Shown: piece after piece, positions 744 to 49,314 of the stretch
How positions within the stretch are numbered: the stretch's first letter is position 1
Layout of the letters: the number at the start of each line of letters is the position of its first letter
Source: Bilabrum cf. latius
Taxonomy: Eukaryota
Assembly: GCA_965178125.1 (NCBI GenBank)
Contig: OZ237749.1
Span: 1,054,001-1,118,000 of the forward strand
Length of the DNA stretch: 64,000 nucleotides
Direction of reading: 5' to 3'
The notes under the pieces: model-generated
What the model was told of the DNA's origin: nothing
Databases searched by the model: none
What the model saw: the letters and a program-made list of their open reading frames with translations, nothing else
Translations under genes and position numbers: made by a program

Positions 744-3700
744 TCAGTGCCACCATCGAGATATCTCGCTCCCACTGTCCTTGCCATCATATCCCATTAG
801 CTTTGGCTCTCCGTCATGGATCTCCAGAGCCACCGCCCACACGTCGTCATGGTCCCACAACGACTCACCATGCTTGTCAACGACGTGCAGCACCCCTCTC
901 ACGTCAAAGATCAGCGTGTACGGCCCCTCTCCCTCCCCGTACGTCCCGGTGTGCCAAACAGACTCCCCGTGCTTGTACAGCACCAGGTTGCCATCTCTCT
1001 GCATCTCCAGCCGCACACCGCTATCCACATGCGACCGAAGCGACTGGCCCTGGAGCAGCCGCTCACCGGGGAACATGGTTATGTGAACACCACCATGCTT
1101 CTTCGGCAGAACCTCCTCACAGTCCTAGTGGGCCTTCGGGTCGCACAACACGTCTCCTGGCTGGTAGTTGAGGCCGTCGAGGTCCGAGTTCCAGGTGCCG
1201 TAAAAATCCCAAGCCCCTATGCTGTTGAAGTTGTTCGTCCTGGTTGCCCAGATCCACTCCCCTGTGTGCCGGTACAGCACCACATTTCCATCAGACTACA
1301 CATCAAGCCTGTCAACAGGCCGTTTGGTGGAGCCCTCGATCCTCCACTTGACGTCCAGCTTGTTCTCGCCAAGGACCATGAGATCACCGTCCCCATCAAG
1401 AAGCAACGTGTGCGGCTGGTTCACCCCGTCGACGTGGTACTTGTCGCTGTCGTCGCTGCTGTCCCACAACGCCACGGTCTTGCGGTCACTAAATCCCCAC
1501 GGGTCGTAAGTCTCGTACAGAACGAGGTTGCCGTCGCTCTACATGCGCAGGTCCATGTCGTGCCAGTCACCGTCGTCGTCCGTGATGCCGTGCCTCCTGA
1601 GCGCGAACGGTGAGGCGATGCCCTGCCCCCTGCGTAGGTTGTCGTTCACGTCCTGCGATCGTATATCGCACTGCTCCATGTTGGTATTACTGCAGTCGTC
1701 TCGAGAGCGTGTACTGCTGGCACCGACACCAACTTGCAGCAGCGCGTCTGCCACCTAGTCCTGCTATGGACCAAACACCTTTCGCAAGGACTTCAGGGTC
1801 AGCTTCTTGGTGATCGTGTTCCTAGACTTGCGCAGCAACTTCATGCCCAGCTTTGACGCAAGGGTCTTGACCACGTCAATACCAGCCACCCGCTGCTTCT
1901 TAGCACGCTTGATGATTGACTTGAGAACATCTTCCTGGACGCCTCCAGCGTTTTTGAGCTGAGACACCAACTCTTGCTGCTGCTACTTCCCAAGACCCTC
2001 CCAGAGACCCAGAATCTCCCTATGCTTCGCAGCAGACTCCATGGCCAGCCTATCCGACTCCTTCACAATCTGCCCCCTCGACGCGCCACCAAACACAGCA
2101 ACATCCAGCAGTATGTCTGGGTCTGCTTTAGCCTCGTTGGCAACATCGATCACGGCGTCGACATAATCGACATCCACCATACGCCTATCGATGTCTACGA
2201 TTTCCAGTGCTTTTGCCCAAGCCAGGCTGTCCGCCGCGTCGTCAACGCTGCACCCCTTGCTCGCCATGGCCATGAGACTGTGGTGCGTGCCAACGTCCTG
2301 CAGAGCAACGAGCTTCGTGTAAGCTGCAAGATCGTCTGCAGCATCCATGGCCAGCAAACGCATTGGCTACAGCTCCTTGCTAGTCGCTACAACGGCCAGC
2401 ACATTCCCCTGAGGCGCGGCGAAGCCGCACGCTGCTGCCAGCTGGTACTGCCGGACGGCTTCCCGGGATTCTTGCATGGTCGCGCCAAAGTTCTTCAGCA
2501 TGATGTCGTCCACCACTGCAGCATCCAGACCCTGGTCCACAAGCTCCTGTCCGTACTTGAGCAGTGCATCCTGCTACCGGAACACGGCACCGACCTGCGT
2601 GAGGTCAAGGGCCGCTTGTCTGACGCGGTCTTCGCTGACAGCGAGCGCCTCTGCAGCGCCCTTCCACTCATTCGATGCATCAAGGTGCTAGAATGCACTC
2701 TTGTCCGCCTGAAGCACCTTGTCGTACTCTTCAGCCAAGTGACTCATATCAATGGTAGCACCGTCGGGACCAGTGATCGAGCTAGGCAGTGGCTGCATTT
2801 GCATCACGCCACCTTCCATGCTCTCCTTGAGCCAGGCTTCCCCTTGCAGTGGCGGTGCATGCTTCGGAGGGTTCAGAGCGTGAGGTGCATTGACGATGCT
2901 ATCTGCATCAGGGGCCTTGCCATCCTCCAGGTAGAGCTTGCCGTCTTGGCCGAGCACGTCGGTATTCTCGCCGTTTTCGACGAAGGTGTGCCTGTCTTCC
3001 AGGTCAAGATCCAAGGCGTCATCCACCTTACTATTCGAGTCATCCAGCACCAGCTTTGCAGTGCCGTCCTCGTCGATTTGCGTCTCAATTACGATGACAT
3101 CATCGCCGTCTCGCTAGGAGAGCCGCTTCTGAAGGTCCTCTACATGCCGGTCTGACAGCCCTCCCACGCTGCCCTTGGCGTTGGGATCCGTAGGTCCTAC
3201 TTCCATCAGCTCCTTGACACTGCTCTCGTCTAGCTGGAACTCCGGTGCTGGCACGGCGTCCTCAGCATCCACGCCAGGCTTCCTCCTGAGAGTTGCGGGG
3301 TCAGGCAGGGTACTCAACTCCTCGAGGTTGTCATACAGCTCTTCAATGTAGTCGATAGTACTATCGCCAGGCTCCAGGCCCATACGCTTGTACTCTCTCG
3401 CGAGATCTTCCGGTGATGCTTCGTCGTACAGCATCTGCCACTCCCTGCGCGCCTGTGGTATTGCGGCGTCCGCGGCATCTCTCGCCTAGCGAATCTGTGT
3501 CGGTGAAGCATCTGTGAGAAGCACATGCTTGCTGATGTACTCCAAGTCTGCGCCCATGGCATCTGCGGAATCCAGCAGCTCCACGGCGTGATTGAGACGG
3601 AAGGCTTCAGCCTCTTGCAAAGCCAGCCGCTTTCCCGTCTCGAAGACGGCGTCAGACTGGGTATCGACAACCTGGCGAAGACAGGCGGAATTCGCAAAGG

Positions 3701-6700
3701 GAAGGTACGTGGGATCAAGTACAAGTCGGGCATCTTGCAAACGCTTGGCCACGGCCGTCAACTCCCCAGTGTTGAACCGGTGCTTCAGGGATCCCACGAC
3801 ATCCTGCACGTCCCAGCACGCGACGGTCCATGGCATTTCCATCGCATTGAAATATACACCTAGCTGAGCCGCTGTGAACGTGTCGAGCTCCTTCTGCAGT
3901 TGTGCTGTAGACGTGCCGAACTGGACCTTGAGGAATGTGTCCTTGTCAATGCCTTTCGAGGCCGCCTCATCCGCGTACTTGGACATGTACACATACCTGT
4001 CACCCGTGGCCATGATGCGGTTCATGGAGGAAGCGAACGAGTGGGTGATTTCTGGATCCATCCCTTCCTAAAAAGAGCGACTGTCGATCTTGGCCTACAA
4101 CTTGCGGTTGGCCTTCAACATCTCGTCGTATTCGTCAGCCAGGTGGCTCAAGTCCAGCACAATCTCCTCCCCGGCGTCATTCACGACCTGGTATTCCCTC
4201 GGCAGCGACTGCAGGTCTGCGATCTGGAAAGATCTCTGGTCGACGGGCGCCCTTTGCATCTTGACCTTTTGGGAGTTCACCGAGCGCATGGCACCCCTTC
4301 GCTTAGGCCCCGTGGTTGCAAGGCCATCCGAGCCTGCGTAACCCTCCACAATGGTGGGCTCCCCGTGCTTGATCGTGGAAGTGCCCTCGGCTAGCATTTC
4401 GTCATTTAGCCGCCCCGAGGCCATCTCATCAGCAACCTTGCTCCTGAAGGCCATCTCGCTCAAGAACTCACCATCCTCTACAGAGCCACCCATGTCCTTC
4501 CGCACCCTGTCCATGAGCACCTCCTGCATTTCATCCCACTCACCCACGTCGAATTGCACTGACTGCAGGAGTTCTTTGCGCTTTTGGGCTACCTTCGCCT
4601 CTACTTTCTTGAGCCGCTTGGCCACCGCAGCAGGGTCTGCCTCAACTCCAATGTACTTCAGCGCGATGGAGGGGTCTGCTCCCATGTCAGTGGCGCCGTC
4701 AACAAACACGCTCGCGGCGCTTAGCATGGTTGCTTCGTACTCCAGATCGGCGAGCTCAGAGGCGTGCTTGAAGGCAAGGTTATCAGCGGGCGGGTTGGAT
4801 GCTAGCGGGCTCTTGACCTACATGTACTTGAGGGTCATAGAGTGCGATACATCCACATCAATCCCGAGCGGGTTGATTGGCATGAAGAGGTCATCCAACC
4901 CCTCCCGGAAGGCATCGAATTTACCATTGGCATCAAGCTCCAGGCCTGCACTCCACTCGAATGGCTGGCCAGGCTTCCTCGGACTGCTACGCGTGTAGGT
5001 GCCGGGGCGCACAAAGATACTATCAACGTCCTTCTTGGGCACTCCCTGGATGGGTGATACCTACCACAGCATGGCCATTGCGTAGGCATCGTCCGCCTGC
5101 CGCGCCTGAGACAGAGTCATGCCCACGTGCTGCTTCAGAATTGCGTCCGCGTCTAGCCCTTGCGCCGCCAGAGCATCACCGTACTCGACAATGGCGTGCT
5201 GCCTCGCAAAGTTCGCATTCAGCTCAATGCTCTGCTTGGCCAGGTGCCGCTGCTCCTCAAGGGGCTAGGCACCGATCTTGCCGGTGGAGGGGAAGGTGGC
5301 CCCATCCATGGCCTCATAGTACTTCTTGTTCATGGCAAGATCGCCATCCAGGTTATCTAGCAGCCTGCCGAGGTCGAGCTGTACCCCGTCAGGCGTCTTG
5401 ACCTTGCGGGGCAGAGAAGGCACCTAGAGATCTGTGATGGATGTCGTGGGAGGGGCAGATCCCACTTTGGCCTTGGGCACCGGCTTGGACTTGGCACCGA
5501 GCGGCCGCTACGGTACCCCTACCGCGTCAGGGTCGGGCTTGCTCTTGTACCCGGGCACGATTGCGTCATCAGCCGGGCGAGAGCTTCCACTACCGATGGT
5601 TTTGCTCTTCTTGTACGGCGCTACTCCGTCTACGACGTCGTCAAGTCCCTTCTGAAACAAATCGTCAATCTATTTGCTGGCGGCTGACTGACCAGGCGCC
5701 TTGAGCGGGGCATCAAGAGATCGAATCAGATGTGTTTTTATGGCCTGCTCCCCTGCTTGCTGCACCACATCTTTGATCACCCCCGTGCCGGCCTTCTAGG
5801 TGCTCTTCCGCAGCACCTTGGAAACTGCCTGCTTGCCGCCATAATGGGCGAGGATGCCTAAAGACTTTCCAAAGTTGGCCAGCTCCATCGGGGTTGCCGC
5901 GGCGTTCTTGAACACCACCCAAGGGGCCTTCACCACAAACTTGCCCACTTTCATGCCCCCCTTGACGGCCCCAATCACGGCAGTCTTGCAGACTCCCAGA
6001 ACTCCGAGCTATTTCGCCCGCGCAGGAGACTTCGCGAACACCTTGGCCAACTTTTTAGCCCCTACCTTGACGCCTACGGCCCCGTGCTTGAGACCTCTAG
6101 CCACCTTGATAGCCGCCGACTTCACACTCTTTGCCACGATTTTGATCATGGAACCGATGTCCTTGGCAGCACCTTTTGCCCCAGCACGCGCAACGTACCT
6201 GGCCAGCTGCACCGGAGACATGACGACTTTCGACGCCGTCTTGAGCGCGCTCTTCGCACCAGCCAACAAGGTGGCTTTTGCCATCTTTATGGCCGCCTTG
6301 GCTCCAAACTTGACCGTGTACTTTGCCACCGCGTACGACCCGCCCGTCAATAGAGACAGGACAACGTCGCCCACTAGCTCAGAGACAAACTGACTCAGGA
6401 ACTTGGACCACTGAAAGAAACTGTCCCCACTCGCAGGGTTGAAGCGAGTCCAGGCCGACCCGTACAGCGAGTAGTCGGAGAGCACCGCATGCGGCCACTC
6501 GTCGTCCTCTTCGTGCCACTCCGCCGTGTTGGTCCGAAACACGGGCTCCTGCCCTGCAGCGAAGAGCACTACATTACCATCCCACTGCAGGTGGAGTTTC
6601 CAGCGAGGGAAGCTGTGCGCAGGGGATGTCACAAGGAACACCTCCGCAGGGGAAGAAAATGCAGCCGTGATACCCCTGTCAAACACATCTGCAATCAGGG

Positions 6701-8777
6701 TTGTGGGCGACATGACCTTGTCCATTGCTCCCAGCTTGTCGGGAGTAACGAGAGTGTTGTAGAGCTGGAGGCTATCCACAAACCACAGGATCTGTCCGCC
6801 CCCATCCACGATTGCCAACTCGGCCATAGACGTCATCACGAGGGCGTATGGGCCCTTCTGCTTAGCCCTACGCTCTTTGATTTCATCTGTGTCATCCTCG
6901 TGAGAATACGATTTGTACGTGAAGCTACTCCACACGGCCTTATTCCTACCAAGGTACAGGACCAGATTGCCGTCGGTCTACATGGTTAGCCGACCCAGCG
7001 GCACCTCGAGCGACTTGCCCTCCCTCAGGATCTAGCCCGAATGCATCGATTCAGAGCCCTCGGGCACATCCTCGCACTGGTCAAGCTGCTGCACGGTACA
7101 CGTGGGGCTGAACGGATTGTCTGTGCGCGCCCTGAACCTGATGAGCCTCTGCCCATGCTTGCCCAGTGGATTCGTAACAGAATCACCGGGGACTGTCACC
7201 GTGCTCCAAACCATGTGCGGATCTGCCATGGTGGCCTGCACGGCAGCTGCTTCAGTGCATGGGTCCCTCGGGTGCCTCGTGTCTGCGCGGTACACGTTGA
7301 AGTTCACCTGGGAGTCCTCCCAGTCGCCGTCGTTCGGCCTCCGCTTGACTCCCACAACGGTAGCGCATGTGATAGGTCCCGCGTCTCCCGTATCCTCACG
7401 CCAAGTTACAGCTCCATCCCCATCGATGAGGGTCAGATCGCCCGCAGACGTCAAGACAAGGGCGTAAGGGCCATTCCTGTCGCTCTCGTCTGTCACTGAC
7501 GTTTCGGTGGACCAAAGGGGGCGATATGGATGCTACTCCAGCTCCTTGGCAAGGTCTCGGTCCTGGTTATCCCTGCATTTGCACACGACCCCGGGGGTGG
7601 CGCAGTTGTAGGCGCCTCCTTTGATCTCCATCTTGCTAGAGTAAAACTTGTCCTCGTCCTCGTCATACCACGCCGAGCAAGAAGTCTCCCGCATATAGAG
7701 CATCAGGTTGCCATCCGACTGCACCGTAAGCTTCGTGTCAACGACGTTGAGGTACGGTACCCCACTGCGGGTGGGTATCTCAAAATCGGCTGCAAAGTCA
7801 AGCACTACGTTGAGGCCTTTGCGGAGGCCCTGCAGGAAATTCCCATCCACCGTCATGGTGGTGATGACCCTCCGCAAGGAGTGGCCCTGCGTAATCAGCT
7901 GCCCGGGACGGAGGGATGATGCAGAATCCCCCACGTCTTCGCACACCGTGACATCCCCCTCACCGCAGAAGCCCATGCCGTCTTGGCGCATCAGGTCCAC
8001 CATCCAGTGCGTGCTCCAAAAATCCTGACTGTAGCCGCGGCGCAGCTTGGTGTAGCGCTCCCACCCGTTCATATCTTCAAGGCTCTACCAGCCAAAGTCC
8101 ATGAGCAGATCTGCCCACTCGGACTTGATCTCAGTGCGCGTTTCCCAGATGACGCGGTGCTGCTAGTCCTGGATCTCAAGGTTGCCCCGCTTTGTGATGT
8201 GAAGCCTCTTGATACGGCCCGCCGCAGAGGCGGAGCGAGACCATATCTCCTGCAACTGACCGGCTTCTTTTGCGGCAGCGAGTGCCTGAAGGACGTTGTC
8301 GTCGTCATGGCCGTGCACCGCTGCCCGAAGAATCACGAGGTCCCCCTCCGACGTTAACATCAGCGCAAACTGGCCATGACCCCCGTCCTGATTGGAGTTC
8401 GAGCTCCATATTGGACTGTTCATCCCATCGAAATGCTCGAAAAGCTCCAGGTTGCCGTTCCCTTGGACGCACAGTTTGGCAAAGACTCCGTGAGCATCCC
8501 GAATGTGGGATTGCAAACAGCCAGACTGTTTGAGCACCTCACCAGGCAAAAGATCGCTGCTTTCGCCATTACTCTTCGCCTCCTTGCATCCAGATAGATC
8601 CTCTGAATCGCAATGCGAAGCCGAGGCGATGTGCCGATTCCGTCTGGCTCTTTGCCCTAAGCGTCCACTTCTGGCATCCAGCGAGAGAAACTCCTTCAGA
8701 TTCGCCGCATCCACCATGTAGAGCATCACAATTGAAATTGCAATGTAGCTCGAAACTTGTCCTAGGCGGCCTGACAT
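744..8777 (-). CDS. Giant secreted bulb-type (B-)lectin domain protein, copy 1 (~2677 aa with TAG=Gln, no introns needed)
   Basis: All long minus-strand ORF pieces from 8163-8786 to 744-1076 share one frame. The gaps hold only TAG (26 counted), no TAA or TGA. ATG 8777 opens a signal-peptide-like MSGRLGQVSSYIAISIVMLYMVDA, and the frame ends at TGA 744-746. Lectin motifs: QSDGNLMLY, *TDGNLVLY, QWDGNVVLF (N-terminal) and *SDGNLVLY, *SDGNVVLY, QRDGNLVLY (C-terminal). Confidence 0.88.
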
Positions 8778-9066
8778 CCTTCGCAACCGAAATCTGCAGA
8801 TCGAATGGCTCGGTTGTCCGAAAGGTAGACTTTTAGGGATGTTTTAAAACCGTGATAAACGTGAACTTGTTTGGATATTACAGGCTATGCTTTTTGAGCT
8901 CTGTTTCGGTTGAGGCCGGGGTGTACTACTTCTCACAAGAAGAGCTTGGTATGGCCGCGGCGCCGGCGGCGGCCTGATTTCTTTACAAAATTAAACTACA
9001 CGAGAAGGGAAGATCAATGCTAGAAAAATCGATCACCGATTCACTAAACCATTCTTTTGGCTACAC

Positions 9067-9073
9067 ATTGGCC
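9067..9073 (-). promoter_or_regulatory. Possible CCAAT box upstream of the lectin gene (also at 21677-21683)
   Basis: GGCCAAT on the minus strand, ~260-290 nt upstream of the ATG, in a block conserved between both copies next to a diverged segment. Confidence 0.35.
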
Positions 9074-11513: not shown

Positions 11514-11759
11514 ACCATCTCGCCCCCCACCTCCCTCGTCTTTCCCACCCATCAGAACCGCCGCTCCTGGTCGTGCCTCGCTGGACTTGCTCCACGACCG
11601 CTCACTACCCCCCTTCGCTGCGTCGCACATGCTCCTGCACCTCGAGCGGGTACTGCGCCCAACGCAAGACCTCAATCTCAAAGACCTCGATGGCCTCACC
11701 AGCAAAAAAGAAAGAGCTTGCAAGAACACATCACCCTCGAATCCCACCCACATAGCCGA

Positions 11760-12986: not shown

Positions 12987-15900
12987 TGCTGGGAAATCAC
13001 CCAGTCTCCGCCCCACTCTCGTTCACAGAGGAGGCATGGGCGTCATCGACAAGCAGTCCGTTGGCTCGATCGCACCGACCGGTGGAGAACACCGACTGAA
13101 CCAAGCAAGACATTCCAGCGCTCCCACAGCGACATCCACATGGACGCCCAGCTGGCGCTAGGATTCACAAGGCTCCTTGCGGCCGTCCATGCTGCGTCTC
13201 CTGCTGCGCCTCTCTCTGGTCACTCCCCGGCTCCTCAGAGGAGTCCTCCATGCCGCCCCACGAACTCAAATACGAACACCTGCCGACACAGACAGAGACG
13301 GTCGCTGAAATCAGCATCACGAACTCCATTTCCCGACATTTCCCCACACGTTGCTACCTATCAGTGCCACCATCGAGATATCTCGCTCCCACTGTCCTTG
13401 CCATCATATCCCATTAGCTTTGGCTCTCCGTCATGGATCTCCAGAGCCACCGCCCACACGTCGTCATGGTCCCACAACGACTCACCATGCTTGTCAACAA
13501 CGTGCAGCACCCCTCTCACGTCAAAGATCAGCGTATACGGCCCCTCTCCCTCCCCGTACGTCCCGGTGTGCCAAATAGACTTCCCGTGCTTGTACAGCAC
13601 CAGGTTGCCATCTCCCTACATCTCCAGCCGCACACCACCATCCACATGCGACCGAAGCGACTGGCCCTGGAGCAGCCGCTCACCGGGGAACATGGTTATG
13701 TGAACACCACCATGCTTCTTCGGCAGAACTTCTTCACAGGCCCAGTGGGCCTTCGGGTCGCACACCACGTCTCCTGGCTGGTAGTTGAGGCCGTCGAGGT
13801 CCGAGTTCCAGGTGCCGTAAAAATCCCAAGCTCCTACGCTGTCGAAGTTGTTCGTCCGGGTTGCCCAGATCCACTCCCCTGTGTGCCGGTACAGCACCAC
13901 ATTTCCATCAGACTACACATCAAGCCTATCAACAGGCCGCTTGGTGGAGCCCTCGATCCTCCACTTGACGTCCAGCTTGTTCTCGCCAAGGACCATGAGA
14001 TCACCGTCCCCATCAAGAAGCAACGTGTGCGGCTGGTTCACCCCGTTGACGTGGTACTTGTCGTTGTCGTCGCTGCTGTCCCACAACGCCACGGTCTTGC
14101 GGTCACTAAATCCCCACGGGTCGTAAGTCTCGTACAGAACGAGGTTGCCGTCGCTCTACATGCGCAGGTCCATGTCGTGCCAGTCACCGTCGTCGTCCGT
14201 GATGCCGTGCCTCCTGAGCGCGAACGGTGAGGCGATGCCCTGCCCCCTGCGTAGGTTGTCGTTCACGTCCTGCGATCGTATATCGCACTGCTCCATGTTG
14301 GTATTACTGCAGTCGTCACTAGAGCGTGTACTGCTGGCACCGACACCAACCTGCAGCAGCGCGTCTGCCTCCTTGTCCTACTTAATTTTTTGCCTGACGA
14401 ATTCGCGCTCTGCCCGAGCACCCCCGCTTGCCAAAATTTTCAGGGTCAGCTTCTTGGTGATCGTGTTCCTAGACTTGCGCAGCAACTTCATGCCCAGCTT
14501 TGACGCAAGGGTCTTGACCACGTCAATACCAGCCACGTACTGCTGCTCAGCATGCTTGATGATTGACTTGAGAACATCTTCCTAGACACCTCCAGCGTTT
14601 TTGAGCTAAGACACCAACTCGTGCTGCTGCTACTCCCCAAGACCCTCCCAGAGACCCACAAAATCCTAATACTTCGTAGCAGACTCCATGGCCAGCCTGT
14701 CCGACTCCTCCAAAACCTGCCCCCTCGACGCGCCACCAAACACAGCAACATCCAGCAGCAGGTCTGGGTCTGCTTTGGCCTCGTCGGCAACATCGATCAC
14801 AGCGTCGACATAATCGACATCCACCATACGCCTATCGATGTCTACGATTTCCAGTGCTTTTGCCCAAGCCAGGCTGTCCGCCGCGTCGTCAACGCTGCAC
14901 CCCTTGCTCGCAGTGGCCATGAGGCTGCGGTGCGTGCCAACGTCCTGCAGAGCAACGAGCTTCGTGTAAGCTGCAAGATCGTCTGCAGCATCCATGGCCA
15001 GCAAACGCATTGGCTACAGCTCCTTGCTAGTCGCTACAACGGCCAGCACATTCCCCTGAGGCGCGGCGAAGCCGCACGCTGCTGCCAACTTGTACTGCCG
15101 GACGGCTTCCCGGGACTCTTGCATGGTCGCGCCAAAGTTCTTCAGCATGATGTCGTCCACCACTGCAGCATCCAGACCCTGGTCCACAAGCTCCTGTCCG
15201 TACTTGAGCAGTGCATCCTGCTACCGGAACACAGCACCTACCTGCGTGAGGTCAAGGGCCGCTTGTCTGACGCGGTCTTCGCTGACAGCGAGCGCCTCTG
15301 CAGCGCCCTTCCACTCCTTCGATGCCTCAAGGTGCTAGAATGCACTCTTGTCCGCCTGAAGCACCTTGTCGTACTCTTCAGCCAAGTGACTCATATCAAT
15401 GGCAGCACCGTCGGGACCAGTGATCGAGCTAGGCAGTGGCTGCATTTGCATCACGCCACCTTCCATGCTCTCCTTGAGCCAGGCTTCCCCTTGCAGTGGC
15501 GGTGCATGCTTCGGAGGCTTCAGAGCGTGAGGTGCATTCACGATGCTATCTGCATCAGGGGCCTTGCCATCCTCCAGGTAGAGCTTGCCGTCTTGGCCGA
15601 GCACGTCGGTATTCTCGCCGTTTTCGACGAAGGTGTGCCTGTCTTCCATGTCAAGATCCAAGGCGTCATCCACCTTACTATTCGAGTCATCCAGCACCAG
15701 CTTTGCAGTGCCGTCCTCGCCGATCTGCTTCTCAATTACGATGACATCATCACCGTCTCGCTAGGAGAGCCGCTTCTGAAGGTCCTCTACATGCCGGTCT
15801 GACAGCCCTCCCACGCTGCCCTTGGCGTTGGGATCCGTAGGTCCTGTTTCCATCAGCTCCTTGACACTGCTCTCGTCTAGCTGGAACTCCGGTGCTGGCA

Positions 15901-18900
15901 CGGCGTCTTCAGCATCCACGCCAGGCTTCCTCCTGAGAGTTGCAGGGTCAGGCAGGGCGCTCAACTCCTCGAGGTTGTCATACAGCTCTTCAATGTAGTC
16001 GATAGTACTATCGCCAGGCTCCAGGCCCATACGCTTGTACTCTCTCGCGAGATCTTCCGGTGATGCTTCGTCGTACAGCATCTGCCACTCCCTGCGCGCC
16101 TGTGGGATTGCGGCGTCCGCGGCATCTCTCGCCTAGCGAATCTGTGCCGGTGACGCATCTGTGAGAAGCACATGCTTGCTGATGTACTCCAAGTCTGCGC
16201 CCATGGCATCTGCGGAATCCAGCAGCTCCACGGCGTGATTGAGACGGAAGGCTTCAGCCTCTTGCAAAGCCAGCCGCTTTCCCGTCTCGAAGACGGCGTC
16301 AGACTGGGTATCGACAACCTGGCGAAGACAGGCGGAATTCGCGAAGGGAAGGTACGTGGGATCAAGTACAAGTCGGGCATCTTGCAAACGCTCGGCCACG
16401 GCCGTCAACTCCCCAGTGTTGAACCGGTGCTTCAGGGATCCCACGACATCCTGCACGTCCCAGCACGCGACGGTCCATGGCATTTCCATCGCATTGAAAT
16501 ACACACCTAGCTGAGCCGCTGTGAACGTGTCGAGCTCCTTCTGCAGTTGTGCTGTAGACGTGCCGAACTGGACCTTGAGGAATGTGTCCTTGTCAATGCC
16601 TTTCGAGGCCGCCTCATCCGCGTACTTGGACATGTACACATACCTGTCACCCGTGGCCATGATGCGGTTCATGGAGGAAGCGAACGAGTGGGTGATTTCG
16701 GGATCCATCCCTTCCTAAAAAGAGCGACTGTCGATCTTGGCCTACAACTTGCGGTTGGCCTTCAACATCTCGTCGTATTCGTCAGCCAGGTGGCTCAAGT
16801 CCAGCACAATCTCCTCCCCGGCGTCATTCACGACCTGGTATTCCCTCGGCAGCGACTGCAGGTCTGCGATCTGGAAAGATCTCTGGTCGACGGGCGCCCT
16901 TTGCATCTTGACCTTTTGGGAGTTCACCGAGCGCATGGCACCCCTTCGCTTAGGCCCCGTGGTTGCAAGGCCATCCGAGCCTGCGTAACCCTCCACAATG
17001 GTGGGCTCCCCGTGCTTGATCGTGGAAGTGCCCTCGGCTAGCATTTCGTCATTTAGCCGCCCCGAGGCCATCTCATCAGCAACTTTGCTCCTGAAGGCCA
17101 TCTCGCTCAAGAACTCACCATCCTCTACAGAGCCACCCATGTCCTTCCGCACCCTGTCCATGAGCACCTCCTGCATTTCATCCCACTCACCCACGTCGAA
17201 TTGCACTGACTGCAGGAGTTCTTTGCGCTTTTGGGCTACCTTCGCCTCTACTTTCTTGAGCCGCTTGGCCACCGCAGCAGGGTCTGCCTCAACTCCAATG
17301 TACTTCAGCGCGATGGAGGGGTCTGCTCCCATGTCAGTGGCGCCGTCAACAAACACGCTCGCGGCGCTTAGCATGGTTGCTTCGTACTCCAGATCGGCGA
17401 GCTCAGAGGCGTGCTTGAAGGCAAGGTTATCAGCGGGCGGGTTGGATGCTAGCGGGCTCTTGACCTACATGTACTTGAGGGTCATAGAGTGCGATACATC
17501 CACATCAATCCCAAGCGGGTTGATTGGCATGAAGAGGTCATCCAACCCCTCCCGGAAGGAATCGAATTTACCATTGGCATCAAGCTCCAGGCCTGCACTC
17601 CACTCGAATGGCTGGCCAGGCTTCCTCGGACTGCTACGCGTGTAGGTGCCGGGGCGCACAAAGATACTATCAACGTCCTTCTTGGGCACTCCCTGGATGG
17701 GTGATACCTACCACAGCATGGCCATTGCGTAGGCATCGTCCGCTTGCCGCGCCTGAGACAGAGTCATGCCCACGTGCTGCTTCAGAACTGCGTCCGCGTC
17801 TAGCCCTTGCGCCGCCAGAGCATCACCGTACTCGACAATGGCGTGCTGCCTCGCAAAGTTCGCATTCAGCTCAATGCTCTGTTTAGCCAGGTGCCGCTGC
17901 TCCTCAAGGGGCTAGGCACCGATCTTGCCGGTGGAGGGGAAGGTGGCCCCATCCATGGCCTCATAGTACTTCTTGTTCATGGCAAGATCGCCATCCAGGT
18001 TATCTAGCAGCCTGCCGAGGTCGAGCTGTACCCCGTCAGGCGTCTTGACCTTGCGGGGCAGAGAAGGCACCTAGAGATCTGTGATGGATGTCGTGGGAGG
18101 GGCAGATCCCACTTTGGCCTTGGGCACCGGCTTGGACTTGGCACCGAGCGGCCGCTACGGTACCCCTACCGCGTCAGGATCGGGCTTGCTCTTGTACCCG
18201 GGCACGATTGCGTCATCAGCCGGGCGAGAGCTTCCACTACCGATGGTTTTGCTCTTCTTGTACGGCGCTACTCCGTCTACGACGTCATCAAGTCCCTTCT
18301 GAAACAAATCGTCGATCTATTTGCTGGCGGCTGACTGACCAGGCGCCTTGAGCGGGGCATCAAGAGATCGAATCAGATGTGTTTTTATGGCCTGCTCCCC
18401 TGCTTGTTGCACCACATCCTTGATCACCCCCGTGCCGGCCTTCTAGGTGGTCTTCCGCAGCACCTTGGAAACTGCCTGCTTGCCGCCATAATGGGCGAGG
18501 ATGCCTAAAGACTTTCCAAAGTTGGCCAGCTCCATCGGGGTTGCCGCGGCGTTCTTGAACACCACCCACGGGGCCTTCACCACAAACTTGCCCACTTTCA
18601 TGCCCCCCTTGACGGCCCCAATCACGGCAGTCTTGCAGACTCCCAGAACTCCGAGCTATTTCGCCCGCGCAGGAGACTTCGCGAACACCTTGGCCAACTT
18701 GTTAGCCCCTACCTTGATGCCTACGGCCCCGTGCTTGAGACCTCTAGCCACCTTGATAGCCGCCGACTTCACACTCTTTGCCACGATCTTGATCATGGAA
18801 CCGATGTCCTTGGCAACACCTTTTGCCCCAGCACGCGCAACATACCTAGCCAGCTGCACCGGAGACATGACGACTTTCGATGCCGTCTTGAGCGCGCTCT

Positions 18901-21714
18901 TCGCACCAGCCAACAAGGTGGCTTTTGCCATCTTTATGGCCGCCTTGGCCCCAAACTTGACCGTGAACTTTGCCACCGCGTACGACCCGCCCGTCAGTAG
19001 AGACAGGGCAACGTCGCCCACTAGCTCAGAGACAAACTGACTCAGGAACTTGGACCACTGAAAGAAACTGTCCCCACTCGCAGGGTTGAAGCGAGTCCAG
19101 GCCGAACCGTACAGCGAGTAGTCGGAGAGCACGGCCTGCGGCCACTTGTCGTCCTCTTCGTGCCACTCCGCCGTGTTGGTCCGAAACACGGGCTCCTGCC
19201 CTGCAGCGAAGAGCACTGCATTACCGTCCCACTGCAGGTGGAATCTCCAGCGAGGGAAGCTGTGCGCAGGGGATGTCACAAGGAACACCTCCGCAGGGGA
19301 AGAAAATGCAGCCGTGATACCCCTGTCAAACACATCTGCAATCAGGGTTGTGGGCGACATGACCTTGTCCAGAGCCCCCAGCTTGTCGGGAGTCACGAGA
19401 GTGTTGTAGAGCTTGAGGCTATCCACAAACCACAGGATCTGTCCGCCCCCATCCACGATTGCCATCTCGGCCATAGATGTCATCACAAGGGCGTATGGGC
19501 CCTTCTGCTTGGCCTTGCGCTCCTTTATTTCATCTGTGTCCTCATGAAAAGACCCTGCGTGCGTAAAGCTACTCCACACGGCCTTATTCCTACCAAGGTA
19601 AAGGACCAGATTGCCGTCGGTCTACATGGTAAGCCGACCCAGCGGCACCTCCAGCGACTTGCCCTCCCTCAGGATCTAGCCCGAATGCATCGATTCAGAG
19701 CCCTCGGGCACATCCTCGCACTGGTCAAGCTGCTGCACGGTGCACGTGGGGCTGAACGGATTGTCTGTACGCGCCCTGAACCTGATGAGCCTCTGCCCAT
19801 GCTTGCCCAGTGGATTCGTAACAGAATCACCGGGGACTGTCACCGTGCTCCAAACCATGTGCGGATCTGCCATGGTGGCCTGCACGGCAGCTGCTTCAGT
19901 GCATGGGTCCCTCGGGTGCCTCGTGTCTGCGCGGTACACGTTGAAGTTCACCTGGGAGTCCTCCCAGTCGCCGTCGTTCGGCCTCCGCTTGACTCCCACA
20001 ACGGTAGCGCATGTGATAGGTCCCGCGTCTCCCGTATCCTCACGCCAAGTTACAGCTCCATCCCCATCGATGAGGGTCAGATCGCCCGCAGACGTCAAGA
20101 CAAGGGCGTAAGGGCCGTTCCTGTCGCTCTCGTCTGTCACTGACGTTTCGGTGGACCAAAGGGGGCGATATGGATGCTACTCCAGCTCCTTGGCAAGGTC
20201 TCGGTCCTGGTTGTCCCTGCATTTGCATACGACCCCGGGGGTGGCGCAGTTGTAGGCGCCTCCTTTGATCTCCATCTTGCTAGAGTAAAACTTGTCCTCG
20301 TCCTCGTCATACCACGCCGAGCAAGAAGTCTCCCGCATATAGAGCACCAGGTTGCCATCCGACTGCACCGTAAGCTTCGTGTCAACGACGTTGAGGTACG
20401 GTACCCCGCTGCGGGTGGGTATCTCAAAATCGGCTGCAAAGTCAAGTACCACGTTGAGGCCTTTGCGGAGGCCCTGCAGGAAATTCCCATCCACCGTCAT
20501 GGTGGTGATGACCCTCCGCAAGGAGTGGCCCTGCGTAATCAGCTGCCCGGGACGGAGGGATGATGCAGAATCCCCCACGTCTTCGCACACCGTGACATCC
20601 CCCTCCCCGCAGAAGCCCATGCCGTCTTGGCGCATCAGGTCCACCATCCAGTGCGTGCTCCAAAAATCCTGACTGTAGCCGCGGCGCAGCTTGGTGTAGC
20701 GCTCCCACCCGTTCATATCTTCGAGGCTCTACCAGCCAAAGTCCATGAGCAGATCTGCCCACTCGGACTTGATCTCAGTGCGCGTTTCCCAGATGACGCG
20801 GTGCTGCTAGTCCTGGATCTCGACGTTGCCCCGCTTTGTGATGTGAAGCCTCTTGATACGGCCCGCCGCAGAGGCGGAGCGAGACCATATCTCCTGCAAC
20901 TGACCGGCTTCTTTTGCGGCAGCGAGTGCCTGAAGGACGTTGTCGTCGTCATGGCCGTGCACCGCTGCCCGAAGAATCACGAGGTCCCCCTCTGACGTCA
21001 ACATCAGCGCAAACTGGCCATGCCCCCCGTCCTGATTGGAGTTTGACCTCCATATTGGACTGTTCATCCCGCCGAAATGCTCGAAAAGCTCCAGGTTGCC
21101 GTTCCCTTGAACGCACAGTTTGGCAAAGACTCCGTGAGCATCCCGAATGTGGGATTGCAAACAGCCAGACTGTTTGAGCACCTCACCAGGCAAAAGATCG
21201 CTGCTTTCGCCATTACCCTTCGCCTCCTTGCACCCAGATAGATCCTCCGAGTCGCAATGCGAAGCCGAGGCGCTGTGCCGATTCCGCCTGGCTCTTTGCC
21301 CAAAACTTCCACTTCTGGCATCCAGCGAGAGAAACTCCTTCAGATTCGCCGCATCCACCATGTAGAACAGCATTATTGAAATTGCAAGGTAGCTCGAAAC
21401 CTGTCCTAGGCGGCCTGACATCCTTCGCAACCGAAATCTGCAGATCGAATGGCTCGGTTGTCCGATAGAAAGACTTTTTGGGGATGCGTTGAAAACCGTG
21501 ATAAACGTGAACTTGTTTGGATATTATAGGCTATGCCTTTTGAGCTCTGTTTCGGTTGAGGCCAGGGTGTACTACTTTTCACAAGAAGAGCTTGGTATGG
21601 CCGCGGCGCCGGCGGCGGCCTGATTTCTTTACAAAATTAAACTAAATTAATCTGGTATTCTCTGGTGCAGCTACACATTGGCCATTTACGGCGACTAATG
21701 AAGAGAGGAAAGTC
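12917..21714. repeat. Segmental duplication unit 2
   Basis: Direct repeat of 300-9104; similarity ends at ...gaaagtc (9104/21714). Confidence 0.93.
13361..21421 (-). CDS. Giant secreted B-lectin domain protein, copy 2 (~2686 aa with TAG=Gln)
   Basis: Near-identical paralogue of 744-8777 at offsets 12617/12647/12644, so only in-frame indels (+30, -3 nt). ATG 21421, TGA 13361-13363. Confidence 0.88.
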
Positions 21715-22067: not shown

Positions 22068-22119
22068 GCGGAGGAGAGGGAGAGAGAGATCGGCTAGTGA
22101 TGAAGAGCAGGAACGGCGG

Positions 22120-22292
22120 CGACTCGGGGTGGGCGAGGGATGGAAGGGGGCGAAGGGGGTGAGGGTGGAGCAGAGAGAGAGAGGGCGAGGGATTTGGGGG
22201 GGGGGGGCGGAGGTAGATAGGGCGAGGGATTAGGGGGGGGGGGGGGGGGCGAAGCGGAGTGAAGGGGGCGGCGGTTCACCAAGTGGGGGGGA
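22120..22292 (+). repeat. G-rich low-complexity tract with long poly-G runs
   Basis: Long G runs at ~22195-22207 and ~22233-22249 plus several G4-G7 runs. Confidence 0.8.
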
Positions 22293-22924: not shown

Positions 22925-25900
22925 TCACGCCATTGCGATCACACCGTTGGCGCCGTGCATGGCCGCCAGCAGCTTCTCCCGCATGATCTTCTCCGTAGAG
23001 TACTCAGGCAGCTCGATCTAGAAGAAGCACGTGTGCGCGATGGGCAGCGCTCTGTCGCCCAGGTTGCGCAGCCTCGTGTTGGCCATCTTGCCCACCTTGA
23101 AGTTCCTCTCCCACTGGGCACCCTAGGGGGGCAGCTGCGATCGGCCCCACGAGAACTGGATGAAGAGAGACCTCTCCTTGGGAGAAAAGCTCTCCAGCAC
23201 ATTCTTAAGACGCCGGATGACCGGGTGGGTCTTGCTCAAGCCATTGATGAAGGTGATGTGGTCCCACATGCGGTCCACGTTGATGTCCTTCTCTCCGCAC
23301 GCGGCCGTCTCCAGCTCCTCCGCGGTCAGGAGCCGCAGCGCGTTCATGGGGACCACCCGCCCGAGCCCCTTGCGCATGGCCTCGTACGCAGGCTCGTTCT
23401 CAGTGCCCCGCAGCGCCCTCAGGGCTCGGCAGTATGCCAGCACCTCGCCCTTGGTCGGAGCCGACGGACCCCCCGCACCGCTGGCCGCCCCTGCTGCATG
23501 CGCGGTAGGCAGGCCTGGCGGTCTCGCGAGCTAGACGAGAGTCCCGTCCGACCTGCGAGCCTCCCACACGAGCGTAGCTGTGGACAAGTGCCGCAGCACC
23601 CCCGGCACTGGCGTCCCCGGCCCGCCGTCCACATCCTAGGCCTCCTTGCGCAGCTGGTGCTCCATCTGCGCATAGTCCTCGTCCACCTACTCGATCATCC
23701 AGTCAGCGGGTTGCCGCTGCAGCAGCCTGCTCCAGACCATGGCCGCAAACTGGAAGGCTTGCGAGCGCTTGTTACGGATGGCCACTCCAATCAAAATGCC
23801 AGCGGCCTCGAAGGCGCGCATGGCCGCGGGATGCGTGGCGGCTGGGTTGACGATGAACGTCGATCCTCCCGCGAGCGAGTCGGACGGCTTGGGCGATGGC
23901 ATGAACACGTTGAGCATGGACGGGTCGAACATGTTCATCACGCTCTGGGACATTGCCTCGCGGTACAGCCCGCCTGCGTCGATGCCGTCCTCGTCCACCG
24001 TGTCGCCCCGGGTGTTGAAGGTCTGGAACACCACCGTGAACAGCTTCTGGTTGCCGTCCAGAGGGGCCCGCAGGTGCTTGTCGGGCCAGCCCCTCATCTA
24101 GTTGCCCAGCTGCATGAACAGGCACTGGCTCTGAGACGCAGACACGTGGCCCCGGTCCCTCGTCTGCAGTGCCTTCCCGTTGTGCAGCTTCACCTTGCCC
24201 GGCTTGCGGTCCCCAGCCTTGCTCTCGGTGGCCTTCAGGGCCTCGTCCAGGTAGGGCATCTTGCAGTCGGGTAGGATGAAGTGCCGCAGGGCGCCCAGGT
24301 GCGCCGCCAGCGTCCAGCCCCTCTGCCCCGCGCTACTGAGCACGCGATGCGCCACCGCGGACGGCTCAAAGGCAGACACCGGCGTAGCCTCTTGGGACTC
24401 GCCACCGGCCCCCAGCGCGCCAGAGGAGCCGCCCGCCTGCTGCGAGTCGTCCTGCGCGGCCTCTGCAAGCGCGTCCACGTCCACGTAGGGCAGCACCTTG
24501 GCCAGCAGCTGGTTCAGCAGCATTACCACAGACACGCGCAGTCGCAAGCTCTTGAAGTTCGATGGCTCGCAGTGCCGGTGCAGCAGCGGATAGGCCGTGC
24601 GGTGCGCCGCCGTGGGTCGCGCCCACCGATTGTACTGCAGCTGCGACTCCCTGCAGTCCCACTTCTTGGCCAGGTCCCGCAGCCAGCCCACCAGCTGTGC
24701 GTCGTCGGATACCGTCCAGGTGGTCATGAGCCTCTGGGCATCAATCAGGTCGCGGGGACTGCCGGCAGACCCGGCGCTGGTGGCCCTCTTGTTGTGTGCC
24801 ATCTTGTAGCACGAAGCCAAGAATCGCTCAGGTAGCGGCCATCTGTACCGTAATGCAGTGCAGATGCCGATCAGCCACTGGAGCTGGTCGAACGGGTGGG
24901 AAGGTGGCCACGCGGTGAGGCCCGCGACCACGTGCTTGCCGGCCTTGTATCTGTCCGCCTGCATGCTCACGCTCTGGGTCTCGTCAGAGGCGCCGAGCGG
25001 CTCCCCTCGCATGCTGCCGCGGGCCACAGTGGCCGCGCGGCGGGCCATGACTGCCAGCTGCAGCAGCTGCAGCTGCGGGCCCGGGACGCCCACCCCGCTG
25101 GTATCCTTCCTAGCAGCATCGATCTTGGACTTGAGCTTGTCGTAGAGCCCCTGCCCCAGCCGATCCAGCCCCGCGATGGTGGTCGGGTCTGCGCCGGGCC
25201 CTTCGGTGGGCAGCAGCTGCGGAGTGGCCAGCAGCTGGGCCAGCAGGTCCTGCACTTGGGCCTTGTAGGGACGCTTGGGCTCCAGCAGGTGCTTGGTCAG
25301 CGTGTCGATGACTACGGGGCTGTGCAGCGCACCGGTGGCCACCAGCCCGGGGGCATGCGTGCACAGGAACCGCAGCAGGAAAGTCCCGAACTCAAGGGAG
25401 CGGCCCTTGACCACCTGAGACTCCTGGTTCCAACTCAGGTTGCGGAGCGGCATCACGCGCACCCTCCACCCCCACAGGTCTGGCTTGACCTCCCCAAAGT
25501 AGATGCCCTGCGTCACGCGCACGCTGTCTCCGTCAATGAGGGCAGGCATGATTTCAGCGTGTCGGCTGCGACCACGGAGCACCCGAACCGTGTGCTCGGA
25601 AGCGCCGGCCTTCTTGGCCACAGTGACGACCCCCCCCTGCTGCATGGTCACTGCGGGAGTCTTGGTCCTCGAGTCAAACTCCAGCTGCAGCTGCGAGGCG
25701 CCGGGAAACCGGGCCTCCACCCAGTACGGCACTCCGGGTGGCAGTGGGTGCAGCGAGTGCAGGACCAGCGCCTCGCTCTCCACTGCCTTGGACCCACCCG
25801 CTCCTGTCTGCACGCCCGTGATGTTACGGACCACTTCACTGATGAACCCGGCCGCAACGGGATACCGAGCCATGGCATCCCCTGCCGCATCGCTCCCCGC

Positions 25901-39155: not shown

Positions 39156-39186
<31 letters not shown>

Positions 39187-45752: not shown

Positions 45753-49314
<3,562 letters not shown>

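What the first reader, a model, noticed from the sequence alone, without database searches (positions are those of the whole stretch)
999..24100. CAG and TAG interchange like synonymous codons between paralogues
CAG 999 pairs with TAG 13616 (the Q of QRDGNLVLY), and CAG 1935 with TAG 14582. CAG 317/12934 pairs with TAG 24098 (LGNQMRG), and CAG 12165 with TAG 23531 (TLVQLAR). In the last two pairs the intact HECT gene carries TAG and the broken copy carries CAG, the opposite of nonsense decay. Three more TAGs (6978, 1539, 1296) occupy the Q of the lectin QxDxNxVxY motif in both copies.
Basis: seen in the sequence. Interest (0 to 1): 0.85.

Follow-up and report, generated by a model that had tools for sequence, protein, structure and literature searches.

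The report
Protist genome reads TAG as glutamine
This stretch of a GC-rich protist chromosome, whose nearest named relative is the marine flagellate Cafeteria, uses the stop codon TAG as an ordinary glutamine codon, a rare genetic-code change for which I found no report in this group of organisms.

Summary

The reading is also right. TAG is a sense codon for glutamine in a eukaryotic nuclear genome.
- In nine genes (15,536 codons) the reading frame holds 88 TAG, 0 TAA and 0 TGA. The two other frames hold 84/89 TAG, 30/49 TAA and 255/288 TGA.
- TAG fills the Q of 7 of 12 lectin QxDxNxVxY motifs.
- A 97.6% identical homologue has Q at 7 of 7 internal window-TAG sites.
- In a 74.5% identical orthologue from a metagenome, which also uses TAG in frame, 17 of 22 TAG sites pair with CAG, CAA or TAG.
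- CAG/TAG exchange runs at the synonymous rate.
- TAA is not a sense codon: 0 seen against about 15 expected. Ten of 11 genes end in TGA and one in TAA.

The code is therefore UAG=Gln with UAA and UGA as stops. This variant is known from Iotanema and a few ciliates.

The organism appears different. The nearest named homologue of the giant HECT ligase is from Cafeteria roenbergensis. My literature searches found no stramenopile with a changed nuclear code.

The tRNA and the release factor were not available.

The parts
744..8786 (-). Giant B-lectin protein gene, copy A (2680 codons; 26 in-frame TAG; ends TGA)
   Evidence: (PF01453 B_lectin, E 2.8e-17)
13361..21430 (-). Giant B-lectin protein gene, copy B (2689 codons; 28 in-frame TAG; ends TGA); tandem duplicate of copy A
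22925..36520 (-). Intact giant HECT ubiquitin ligase gene (4531 codons; 16 in-frame TAG; ends TGA). One TAG (23018-23020, aa 4501) lies 8 residues after the motif HTC, with 30 conserved residues still to come.
   Evidence: (PF00632 HECT, E 1.5e-44); a HECTD4-like cluster is nearest in the Atlas (score 0.89, a lead only)
11514..12986 (-). Broken partial copy of the HECT 3' end, with internal deletions and an unrelated insert. It has TAG at 11853 and 11958 and CAG at 12165 and 12934.
300..369 (-). Edge of a further copy of the same HECT fragment (CAG at 317), at the start of the first repeat unit
36705..40025 (-). Cid1-type nucleotidyltransferase / poly(A) polymerase gene (6 in-frame TAG; ends TGA)
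40273..42135 (+). Low-complexity protein gene (1 in-frame TAG; ends TGA)
42568..45534 (+). Low-complexity protein gene (3 in-frame TAG). It is the only gene that ends in TAA; GC3 falls from 0.70-0.93 to 0.40-0.47 after this TAA.
45753..47430 (-). Beta-tubulin gene with introns, no TAG in its large exon; inverted twin of the next gene (99.5% identical)
47627..49314 (+). Beta-tubulin gene with two GT..AG introns near the 5' end. The large exon has 17 CAG, 0 CAA, 0 TAG and GC3 0.92; the gene ends TGA.
49502..55648 (-). Protein kinase C-lobe plus a long low-complexity tail (4 in-frame TAG; ends TGA)
59271..60125 (-). Rhomboid protease gene (2 in-frame TAG; ends TGA)
62253..63998 (-). UFSP-type (Peptidase_C78) gene, cut by the end of the window (2 in-frame TAG; ends TGA)

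Best explanation
The window is nuclear DNA of a GC-rich, intron-poor protist. Its cytoplasmic translation reads UAG as glutamine, while UGA (the usual stop) and UAA still end genes. CAG and TAG are therefore true synonyms, one C/T transition apart, and they drift into each other between paralogues, strains and species at the synonymous rate.

Shown here: TAG is a frequent in-frame codon (about 12% of Gln codons overall, 20% in the lectin genes, 0 in beta-tubulin). It stands where homologues have Gln. TAA and TGA are excluded from reading frames.

Inferred, not shown: decoding is by a dedicated tRNA-Gln with anticodon CUA, which cannot pair with UAA, derived from tRNA-Gln(CUG) by one anticodon change. 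It acts together with a release factor eRF1 that has lost grip on UAG but not on UAA or UGA. This is the mechanism proposed for Iotanema spirale (PMC5304391, section 9). Decoding must be efficient, because genes with 16-28 TAGs would otherwise yield almost no full-length product.

The change is shared by at least one other species (locus L001). It is absent from the orthologues in the Cafeteria clade.
For: 1. Frame test. Nine genes (15,536 codons) have 88 TAG, 0 TAA and 0 TGA in frame. Frames +1 and +2 have 84/89 TAG, 30/49 TAA and 255/288 TGA. With TAG read as sense, frames of 2700, 2721, 4541, 1118, 1002 and 2080 codons open up.

2. Lectin motifs. Each lectin copy has 6 QxDxNxVxY motifs. The Q is TAG in 3 (copy A) and 4 (copy B) of them and CAG in the rest; no other residue occurs there.

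3. Lectin paralogues. Of 2698 aligned codons, 182 differ (93 synonymous, 89 not) and 23 TAG are shared. Partners of unshared TAG are CAG 4, CAA 1, AAG 1, TGG 1 and AGG 1.

4. Close homologue P0131. This 1256-residue protein from another assembly is identical at 1226 of 1256 residues. It has Q at 7 of 7 internal window-TAG sites and ends exactly before the TAG at aa 4501.

5. Orthologue L001. It is 74.5% identical over 1310 codons and has 14 in-frame TAG of its own. At the 22 aligned sites with TAG in either sequence, the partner is CAG 13, CAA 3, TAG 1 and other 5. Three more L001 genes carry 3, 7 and 4 TAG. The two of them that are complete end in TGA, as does its HECT frame, and none has TAA in frame.

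6. Distant orthologues with TAG-free frames, including Cafeteria. Q is the commonest residue at TAG columns (26 of 135, 19%). That matches the share at CAG/CAA columns (165 of 976, 17%). The columns for aa 3407 and 4501 are Q in 4 of 5 and 5 of 6 of them.

7. Exchange rates match the synonymous controls.

8. TAA. It is 0 in frame, against about 14.6 expected from the CAA/CAG ratio (91/535) times 86 TAG.

9. Gene ends. Ten of 11 are TGA, 1 is TAA and 0 are TAG.

10. Independent assemblies keep the TAGs.
Against: No RNA, peptide, tRNA or eRF1 evidence is available. The window and five related loci hold no tRNA gene and no whole genome is held.

The absence of in-frame TAA and TGA is partly built into how the frames were delimited. 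The frame lengths and the off-frame densities answer this.

The DNA of P0131 was not seen. That its Q residues are CAG or CAA is inferred from its having been called as one frame that stops at a TAG.

Five of 22 orthologous TAG sites, and 3 of 8 unshared paralogous TAG sites, pair with non-Gln codons. This is in line with the 25% and 3% overall residue divergence, but it is not zero.

T is rare after TAG (3 of 88, against 80 of 537 after CAG). This could hint at a context effect.

Only one gene end supports TAA as a working stop.
Confidence: 0.9

Rival explanations
1. Both UAA and UAG mean glutamine (the common 'code 6' variant of ciliates, hexamitins and some ulvophytes), and TAA is missing from these genes only because the genome is GC-rich.
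For: GC3 is 0.69-0.82 in these genes and TGA ends 10 of 11 genes, so TAA is rare in any role.
Against: A-ending codons are not that rare: CAA/CAG is 91/535, GAA/GAG 141/672 and AAA/AAG 82/462. About 14.6 TAA would be expected beside 86 TAG, and 0 are seen. In L001 (GC 55%) the HECT part has 14 TAG, 14 CAA and 0 TAA. One gene ends at TAA, with GC3 falling behind it.
Confidence: 0.04
2. The genomic TAGs are not decoded as such. They are either corrected in the mRNA (U-to-C editing gives CAG) or passed by leaky read-through with an ordinary near-cognate tRNA-Gln, without a true reassignment.
For: No transcript or protein data were available to exclude it. C is somewhat enriched and T depleted after TAG, and from general knowledge C after a stop codon favours read-through (recalled, not from a call).
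Against: There are 88 sites in 15,536 codons, with up to 28 in one gene. Leaky read-through compounded over 16-28 sites would leave almost no full-length protein. TAG density in frame equals that in the other frames, so there is no selection against it. I know of no nuclear U-to-C editing on this scale (recalled). Contigs of run X7, guessed to be RNA, keep at least 21 of the 27 TAG codons they cover, but the RNA label is only a guess.
Confidence: 0.03
3. TAG is a sense codon for a residue other than glutamine (Leu, Ser, Glu, Tyr, Lys or Trp, as in other recoded lineages), or it is ambiguous.
For: A few TAG sites pair with other codons: TGG, AAG and AGG between the paralogues, and GGG, CGG, CAC, TCT and CTA between the orthologues. 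UAG means Leu in a rhizarian and Ser in Scotinosphaera (PMC11687900, discussion passage).
Against: No alternative residue recurs; each non-Gln partner appears once. Q accounts for 7 of 7 sites in P0131 and 16 of 21 unshared sites against L001. It fills all 12 lectin motif positions, 7 of them as TAG. It is also the conserved residue of the columns HTCFFQIELP and aa 3407.
Confidence: 0.02
4. The TAGs are real stops: the genes are decaying pseudogenes, or the TAGs are sequencing or assembly errors.
For: Under the standard code every large gene here is broken.
Against: Only one of the three stop codons 'breaks' the genes. The paralogues differ by 93 synonymous and 89 non-synonymous changes. Strain differences are 24 synonymous to 16 non-synonymous among the 40 shown of 94. 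Both ratios are signs of purifying selection. Contigs from four studies reproduce the TAGs. The intact gene has TAG where the broken copy has CAG.
Confidence: 0.01

Closest known systems
Iotanema spirale (Fornicata) nuclear code: UAG = Gln, UAA and UGA stops (PMC5304391; abstract and section 9 read)
   Same: The same split of UAG from UAA and the same amino acid. The same predicted mechanism applies: a tRNA-Gln(CUA) that cannot read UAA, plus an altered eRF1.
   Different: Iotanema is an anaerobic metamonad known from a transcriptome, with UAA as its primary stop. Here the genome is 52-74% GC, TGA is the usual stop (10 of 11 genes), and the nearest named relative is a stramenopile. The two would be independent origins.
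Ciliates with UAG-only reassignment to Gln: Protocruzia tuzeti and two phyllopharyngean lineages (PMC11687900; discussion passages read); NCBI table 15 type
   Same: UAG = Gln while UAA is retained as a stop.
   Different: This is not a ciliate-like genome. It is a 64-kb conventional chromosome piece with a 12.6-kb tandem duplication and high GC. By my own measurement of the frames (no tool reported it), the tubulin introns are roughly 100-250 bases long. In the tubulin tree it sits loosely with oomycete and dinoflagellate sequences (weak).
UAR = Gln codes (NCBI table 6: many ciliates, hexamitin diplomonads, Streblomastix, Amoeboaphelidium, some Ulvophyceae; PMC2984419 abstract, PMC11687900 passage)
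   Same: A stop codon is reassigned to Gln through a codon one transition away from CAG or CAA.
   Different: TAA is not a sense codon here: 0 seen in frame against about 15 expected.
Cafeteria roenbergensis nuclear genome (PMC6972860; abstract and passages read)
   Same: It is the nearest named homologue of the giant HECT ligase (4261 residues, 41% identity in the C-terminal 522 residues). The genome style matches: about 70% GC and fewer than 2 introns per gene.
   Different: In the passages I read the paper names a non-standard code only for the Cafeteria mitochondrion; that the nuclear genes were annotated with the standard code is my inference. Its HECT orthologue is one uninterrupted 4261-residue protein. 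The sequences with in-frame TAG form their own fully supported clade outside the Cafeteria clade.
Giant viruses that read TAG as Gln with TAA and TGA as stops
   Same: The same rare code; those notes postulate an unidentified host with this code.
   Different: Those are viruses, and this is cellular DNA. No link was shown: a scan of viral contigs with the HECT profile found no relative.

Membership tests
Nuclear code with UAG = Gln and UAA/UGA = stop (table 15 type; Iotanema type) | TAG occurs in frame inside conserved, selected genes | tested here: met
   88 in-frame TAG in nine genes, including the HECT, B-lectin, rhomboid, kinase and nucleotidyltransferase domains.
Nuclear code with UAG = Gln and UAA/UGA = stop (table 15 type; Iotanema type) | TAG positions correspond to Gln in homologues | tested here: met
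   7 of 7 in P0131; 17 of 22 against L001; 7 of the 12 lectin motif Q positions are TAG and the rest CAG; Q is commonest in distant orthologues.
Nuclear code with UAG = Gln and UAA/UGA = stop (table 15 type; Iotanema type) | TAA is not a sense codon | tested here: met
   0 in frame against about 14.6 expected. One gene ends at TAA, with GC3 dropping after it.
Nuclear code with UAG = Gln and UAA/UGA = stop (table 15 type; Iotanema type) | TGA is not a sense codon | tested here: met
   0 in frame against 255 and 288 in the other frames. TGA ends 10 of 11 genes.
Nuclear code with UAG = Gln and UAA/UGA = stop (table 15 type; Iotanema type) | A tRNA with anticodon CUA and glutamine identity | not testable with these tools
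   No tRNA gene in the window or in L001, L002, L008, L018 or L020. No genome is held.
Nuclear code with UAG = Gln and UAA/UGA = stop (table 15 type; Iotanema type) | eRF1 altered in its stop-codon recognition motifs | not testable with these tools
   eRF1 is not in the window, and no genome is held.
Nuclear code with UAG = Gln and UAA/UGA = stop (table 15 type; Iotanema type) | Gln found at UAG in the protein | not testable with these tools
   This needs proteomics of the organism.
UAR = Gln code (table 6) | Both TAA and TAG occur in frame at Gln positions | tested here: not met
   There is no in-frame TAA in 15,536 codons of the window or in the L001 genes.
Ambiguous stop/sense codes (Condylostoma or Blastocrithidia type) | The reassigned codon also ends genes, depending on context | tested here: inconclusive
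   None of 11 gene ends is a TAG when TAG is read through. A terminal TAG followed closely by TGA could not be told apart without transcript ends.
Stramenopiles, near Bicosoecida (placement of the organism) | Marker genes group with named members | tested here: inconclusive
   The only named close homologue of the HECT ligase is from Cafeteria roenbergensis. The clade with in-frame TAG lies beside, not inside, the Cafeteria clade. Beta-tubulin is 93-94% identical to Phytophthora and falls outside the supported Viridiplantae and animal clades, with weak support. No rRNA is in the window.

The most novel reading that the evidence does not exclude
An undescribed lineage of heterotrophic stramenopiles beside Cafeteria has independently reassigned UAG to glutamine in a 55-70% GC genome where UGA is the working stop. 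The lineage holds at least two species about 25% apart in protein sequence, seen in assemblies from several studies. That would be the first nuclear code change in Stramenopiles. It would also be a case of stop-codon capture under GC pressure rather than AT pressure. A bolder and much less likely extension (about 0.1): flagellates of this kind are the missing hosts of the giant viruses, noted earlier in this scan, that read TAG as glutamine; Cafeteria itself hosts a giant virus (PMC6972860 abstract).
Probability: 0.45. Interest if true: 0.8.

Novelty: new member of a known kind. Interest (0 to 1): 0.68.

Why it matters
Changes of the nuclear genetic code are rare. Cases where UAG and UAA part ways were unknown before 2017 and remain a short list: Iotanema, a rhizarian, Scotinosphaera and a few ciliates (PMC5304391; PMC11687900).

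A further, independent origin in a GC-rich, conventional genome close to a culturable model flagellate would add a useful comparison. The relatives with TAG-free frames (the Cafeteria clade, L002) and the lineage with in-frame TAG share orthologous giant genes. The order of events (loss of TAG as a stop, gain of tRNA-Gln(CUA), change in eRF1) could therefore be traced.

There is a practical side. Standard gene callers cut this organism's proteins at every TAG. P0131 and P0142 both end at the TAG of aa 4501, so its proteins in public collections are fragments.

It also gives a concrete cellular candidate type for the hosts of giant viruses that use the same code.

Tried and rejected
- **Whole genome.** None is held, so the tRNA-Gln(CUA) and eRF1 could not be sought.
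- **tRNA and Rfam.** No tRNA and no Rfam family in the window. No tRNA in five related loci.
- **Sequencing runs.** No RNA holder is listed. The run labels 'RNA?' are guesses, so nothing is said about expression. Parts of the stretch without contig cover in some runs are not interpreted.
- **Protein Atlas.** Those two proteins were not sent elsewhere afterwards. A different piece (P0138) was accepted and gave only a lead, a HECTD4-like cluster at 0.89.
- **Beta-tubulin for taxonomy.** Too conserved: best identities were 94% (Phytophthora) and 93% (Tetrabaena), and the tree is weakly resolved.
- **Viral contigs with the HECT profile.** No relative found.
- **Prokaryote genome contigs.** One irrelevant 35-residue match.
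- **Earlier notes of this scan.** Nothing on this genome or on look-alike sequence.
- **Green alga.** Considered because of the GC-rich, Ala/Ser/Gly-rich proteins. Rejected because tubulin falls outside the supported Viridiplantae clade and the nearest HECT homologue is from Cafeteria.
- **Giant virus.** Considered and rejected: the window holds cellular beta-tubulin genes with spliceosomal introns and housekeeping genes.
- **V in homologue P0003.** It has V at three window-TAG positions. This was judged chance, since closer homologues have Q there.
- **Literature.** Searches found no stramenopile with a changed nuclear code.

Full report
**What is there.**
The window is eukaryotic nuclear DNA with 52-74% GC. 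Under the standard code all large genes are broken. If TAG is read as a sense codon, long frames open:
- two of 2680 and 2689 codons (744-8786 and 13361-21430, minus strand);
- one of 4531 codons (22925-36520, minus);
- further frames of 1106, 988 and 2048 codons, and smaller ones.

Pfam identifies these genes:
- a giant protein with B-lectin repeats, in two copies;
- a giant HECT ubiquitin ligase;
- a Cid1-type nucleotidyltransferase;
- a protein kinase;
- a rhomboid protease;
- a UFSP-type peptidase;
- two beta-tubulin genes.

The tubulin genes have GT..AG introns and lie head to head. This is cellular, not viral, DNA.

**The observation.**
Every coordinate in the finding is a minus-strand codon of the kind described. 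The repeat structure is a 12.6-kb tandem duplication: 300-8998 matches 12917-21644 at 97.7-97.9% identity. Each unit begins with a partial copy of the 3' end of the HECT gene.

The copy at 11514-12986 is degenerate, with two internal deletions and an unrelated insert.

**Is TAG a sense codon?**
The cleanest test is a frame comparison, over nine genes and 15,536 codons:

| Frame | TAG | TAA | TGA |
|---|---|---|---|
| Reading frame | 88 | 0 | 0 |
| Frame +1 | 84 | 30 | 255 |
| Frame +2 | 89 | 49 | 288 |

TAG is as common in frame as out of frame, while the other two stop codons are excluded. The frames were delimited by TAA and TGA, so their absence is partly by construction. But uninterrupted runs of 2680-4531 codons, against an off-frame density of about one TGA per 55-60 codons, cannot arise by chance.

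The genes are under purifying selection. The lectin copies differ at 182 of 2698 aligned codons, 93 synonymous and 89 not. Of the 40 strain differences shown (54 more were not shown), 24 are synonymous.

**Which residue?**
Five lines of evidence point to glutamine.
1. Each lectin copy has six QxDxNxVxY motifs. The Q is TAG in 3 (copy A) and 4 (copy B) of them and CAG in the others.
2. Between the lectin copies 23 TAG are shared. The unshared ones pair with CAG (4), CAA (1), AAG, TGG and AGG (1 each).
3. P0131 is a 1256-residue protein called from another assembly, identical at 1226 of 1256 residues. It has Q at 7 of 7 internal window-TAG sites. It begins seven residues after the window's TAG at aa 3233. 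It ends exactly before the TAG at aa 4501, inside the motif HTCFF|QIELPEY. This is what a standard-code gene caller does at a TAG. Its DNA was not seen.
4. Locus L001 comes from a metagenome (GC 55%). It holds the orthologous HECT gene, 74.5% identical over 1310 codons, with 14 in-frame TAG of its own. Of 22 aligned sites with TAG in either sequence, the partner is CAG 13, CAA 3, TAG 1 and something else 5. Three more genes of L001 (DnaJ, FERM-WW, PfkB-like) carry 3, 7 and 4 TAG. The two of them that are complete end in TGA.
5. The comparison set is six distant orthologues whose frames are free of TAG, one of them from Cafeteria roenbergensis. Against them, Q is the commonest residue at TAG columns (26 of 135). 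Its share equals that at ordinary CAG/CAA columns (165 of 976). The columns of aa 3407 and aa 4501 are almost uniformly Q.

| Codon pair | Kind | Lectin paralogues | HECT orthologues |
|---|---|---|---|
| CAG/TAG | under test | 0.039 | 0.371 |
| CTG/TTG | synonymous, first position | 0.016 | 0.239 |
| G/A, third position | synonymous | 0.028-0.051 | 0.16-0.22 |
| C/T, first position | non-synonymous | 0-0.011 | 0-0.18 |

CAG and TAG therefore drift into each other like synonyms.

The two sites where the intact HECT gene has TAG and the broken copy has CAG are CAG in L001 and Q in P0131. The intact, selected gene thus gained TAG after the duplication. That would be impossible for a true stop codon.

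**TAA and TGA.**
There are 86 TAG in eight genes and a CAA/CAG ratio of 91/535. About 14.6 TAA would be expected if TAA also meant Gln; none is seen. None occurs in the L001 genes either, where CAA is relatively commoner.

Ten of 11 gene ends are TGA. One is TAA (45532-45534), after which GC3 falls from 0.70-0.93 to 0.40-0.47. The code is therefore UAG = Gln with UGA and UAA as stops. The evidence that UAA works as a stop is thin.

**Are the TAGs real?**
Eight runs from four studies hold the stretch. Contigs of four runs, one from each study, were laid on 13300-24300.

| Run | TAG codons covered by listed pieces (of 34) | A>G differences in all |
|---|---|---|
| X7 | 27 | 6 |
| X5 | 24 | 7 |
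| X8 | 25 | 1 |
| X2 | 17 | 9 |

A>G on the plus strand is the change that would turn a minus-strand TAG into CAG. Two shown differences, both in X2, change TAG to CAG (13618 and 23689). That is polymorphism of the expected kind. X8 matches the window exactly over 6.7 kb and may be its source, so it is not counted as independent.

**Usage pattern.**
TAG makes up about 20% of Gln codons in the lectin genes (GC3 0.71), 7% in the HECT gene (GC3 0.82) and 4% in the kinase gene. It makes up none of the 17 Gln codons in the large tubulin exon (GC3 0.92). This fits a rarer, GC-disfavoured synonym that the most highly expressed genes may avoid.

T is rare directly after TAG: 3 of 88, against 80 of 537 after CAG. 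This is unexplained.

**Who is it?**
No rRNA or tRNA is in the window. Beta-tubulin is at most 94% identical to anything scored. In a weakly resolved tree it falls outside the supported plant and animal clades, next to Phytophthora and dinoflagellates.

A full scan of 1.84 billion representatives with the HECT C-terminus found three full-length orthologues of 4261-4555 residues at 41-44% identity. One is from Cafeteria roenbergensis, and one lies on the contig of L002.

In a tree of the domain, the window, P0131 and L001 form a clade with 100/100 support. It sits beside a 100/100 clade holding Cafeteria, L002, P0132 and P0139. L002 (GC 73%) has 96 CAG and no TAG in 3802 codons.

Cafeteria's genome is about 70% GC with fewer than two introns per gene. 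In the passages I read, the paper names a non-standard code only for the mitochondrion (PMC6972860). The organism is therefore most likely a heterotrophic stramenopile near the bicosoecids, but that rests on one gene family and on genome style.

**Mechanism.**
By analogy with the reasoning for Iotanema (PMC5304391, section 9), only an anticodon CUA can read UAG without reading UAA. Such a tRNA is one mutation away from tRNA-Gln(CUG). eRF1 must also have lost UAG recognition.

Neither could be examined. The efficiency of decoding is inferred from genes that carry 16-28 TAGs and are still conserved to their last residues. The TAG at aa 4501 precedes 30 conserved residues of the HECT domain.

**Comparison with what is known.**
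UAG-only reassignment to Gln is reported for Iotanema spirale, Protocruzia tuzeti and two phyllopharyngean ciliate lineages. UAG means Leu in a rhizarian and Ser in Scotinosphaera (PMC11687900 passages). The variant itself is thus known.

Seven literature searches found no stramenopile with a changed nuclear code. Supplements were closed, so taxon lists there were not seen.

Earlier notes of this scan describe giant viruses that read TAG as Gln and whose host is unknown. A scan of viral contigs with the HECT profile found nothing, so any link is only a lead.

**Verdict.**
This is a new member of a known kind of code variant, probably an independent origin in a lineage where none had been described.

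Noticed in passing
window 300-21644: A 12.6-kb tandem duplication carries a giant (about 2680-residue) protein gene. The protein has B-lectin repeats at both ends, a lysine-rich amphipathic stretch and three long helical repeats in between. Each repeat unit starts with a degenerate piece of the neighbouring HECT gene's 3' end, which shows how the duplication was laid down.
   Followed up: partly
window 45753-47430 (-) and 47627-49314 (+): Two beta-tubulin genes lie head to head with 196 bases between their start codons. They are 99.5% identical over 1.5 kb, introns included, which suggests ongoing gene conversion.
   Followed up: partly
window 1-22000 versus 24000-56000: There is a sharp GC difference: 52-59% in the lectin repeat region against 63-74% in the rest. 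TAG accounts for 20% of Gln codons in the former and 4-7% in the latter.
   Followed up: partly
in-frame TAG codons of nine genes: T is strongly depleted directly after TAG (3 of 88) compared with after CAG (80 of 537), and C is somewhat enriched (36 of 88 against 161 of 537). This may be a context effect on decoding or termination.
   Followed up: no
window 21976-22450: A short element starting at about 21976 has roughly ten times the contig depth of its surroundings in all four runs, and contigs break there (loose ends at 21975-21979). It is followed by a G-rich low-complexity stretch. It is probably the edge of a dispersed repeat, sitting between the duplicated unit and the HECT gene.
   Followed up: no
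window 23018-23020; L001 3868-3870: The TAG eight residues after the HTC motif of the HECT domain (HTCFF-Q-IELPEY) is TAG in the window, in its broken copy and in L001. Two database proteins (P0131, P0142) end exactly there. Standard gene callers therefore deposit truncated proteins for this lineage.
   Followed up: yes
L002 (metagenome contig, GC 73%): A Cafeteria-like relative from the same metagenome as L001 has the orthologous gene as one TAG-free frame of 3802 codons. Two neighbouring frames end in TAG under the standard code. It would serve as a comparison genome that apparently keeps TAG as a stop, next to the lineage with in-frame TAG.
   Followed up: partly
window 60533-60749 and 61595-61811: A 217-base direct repeat, 98.6% identical, lies about 1 kb apart between the rhomboid and UFSP genes.
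   Followed up: no
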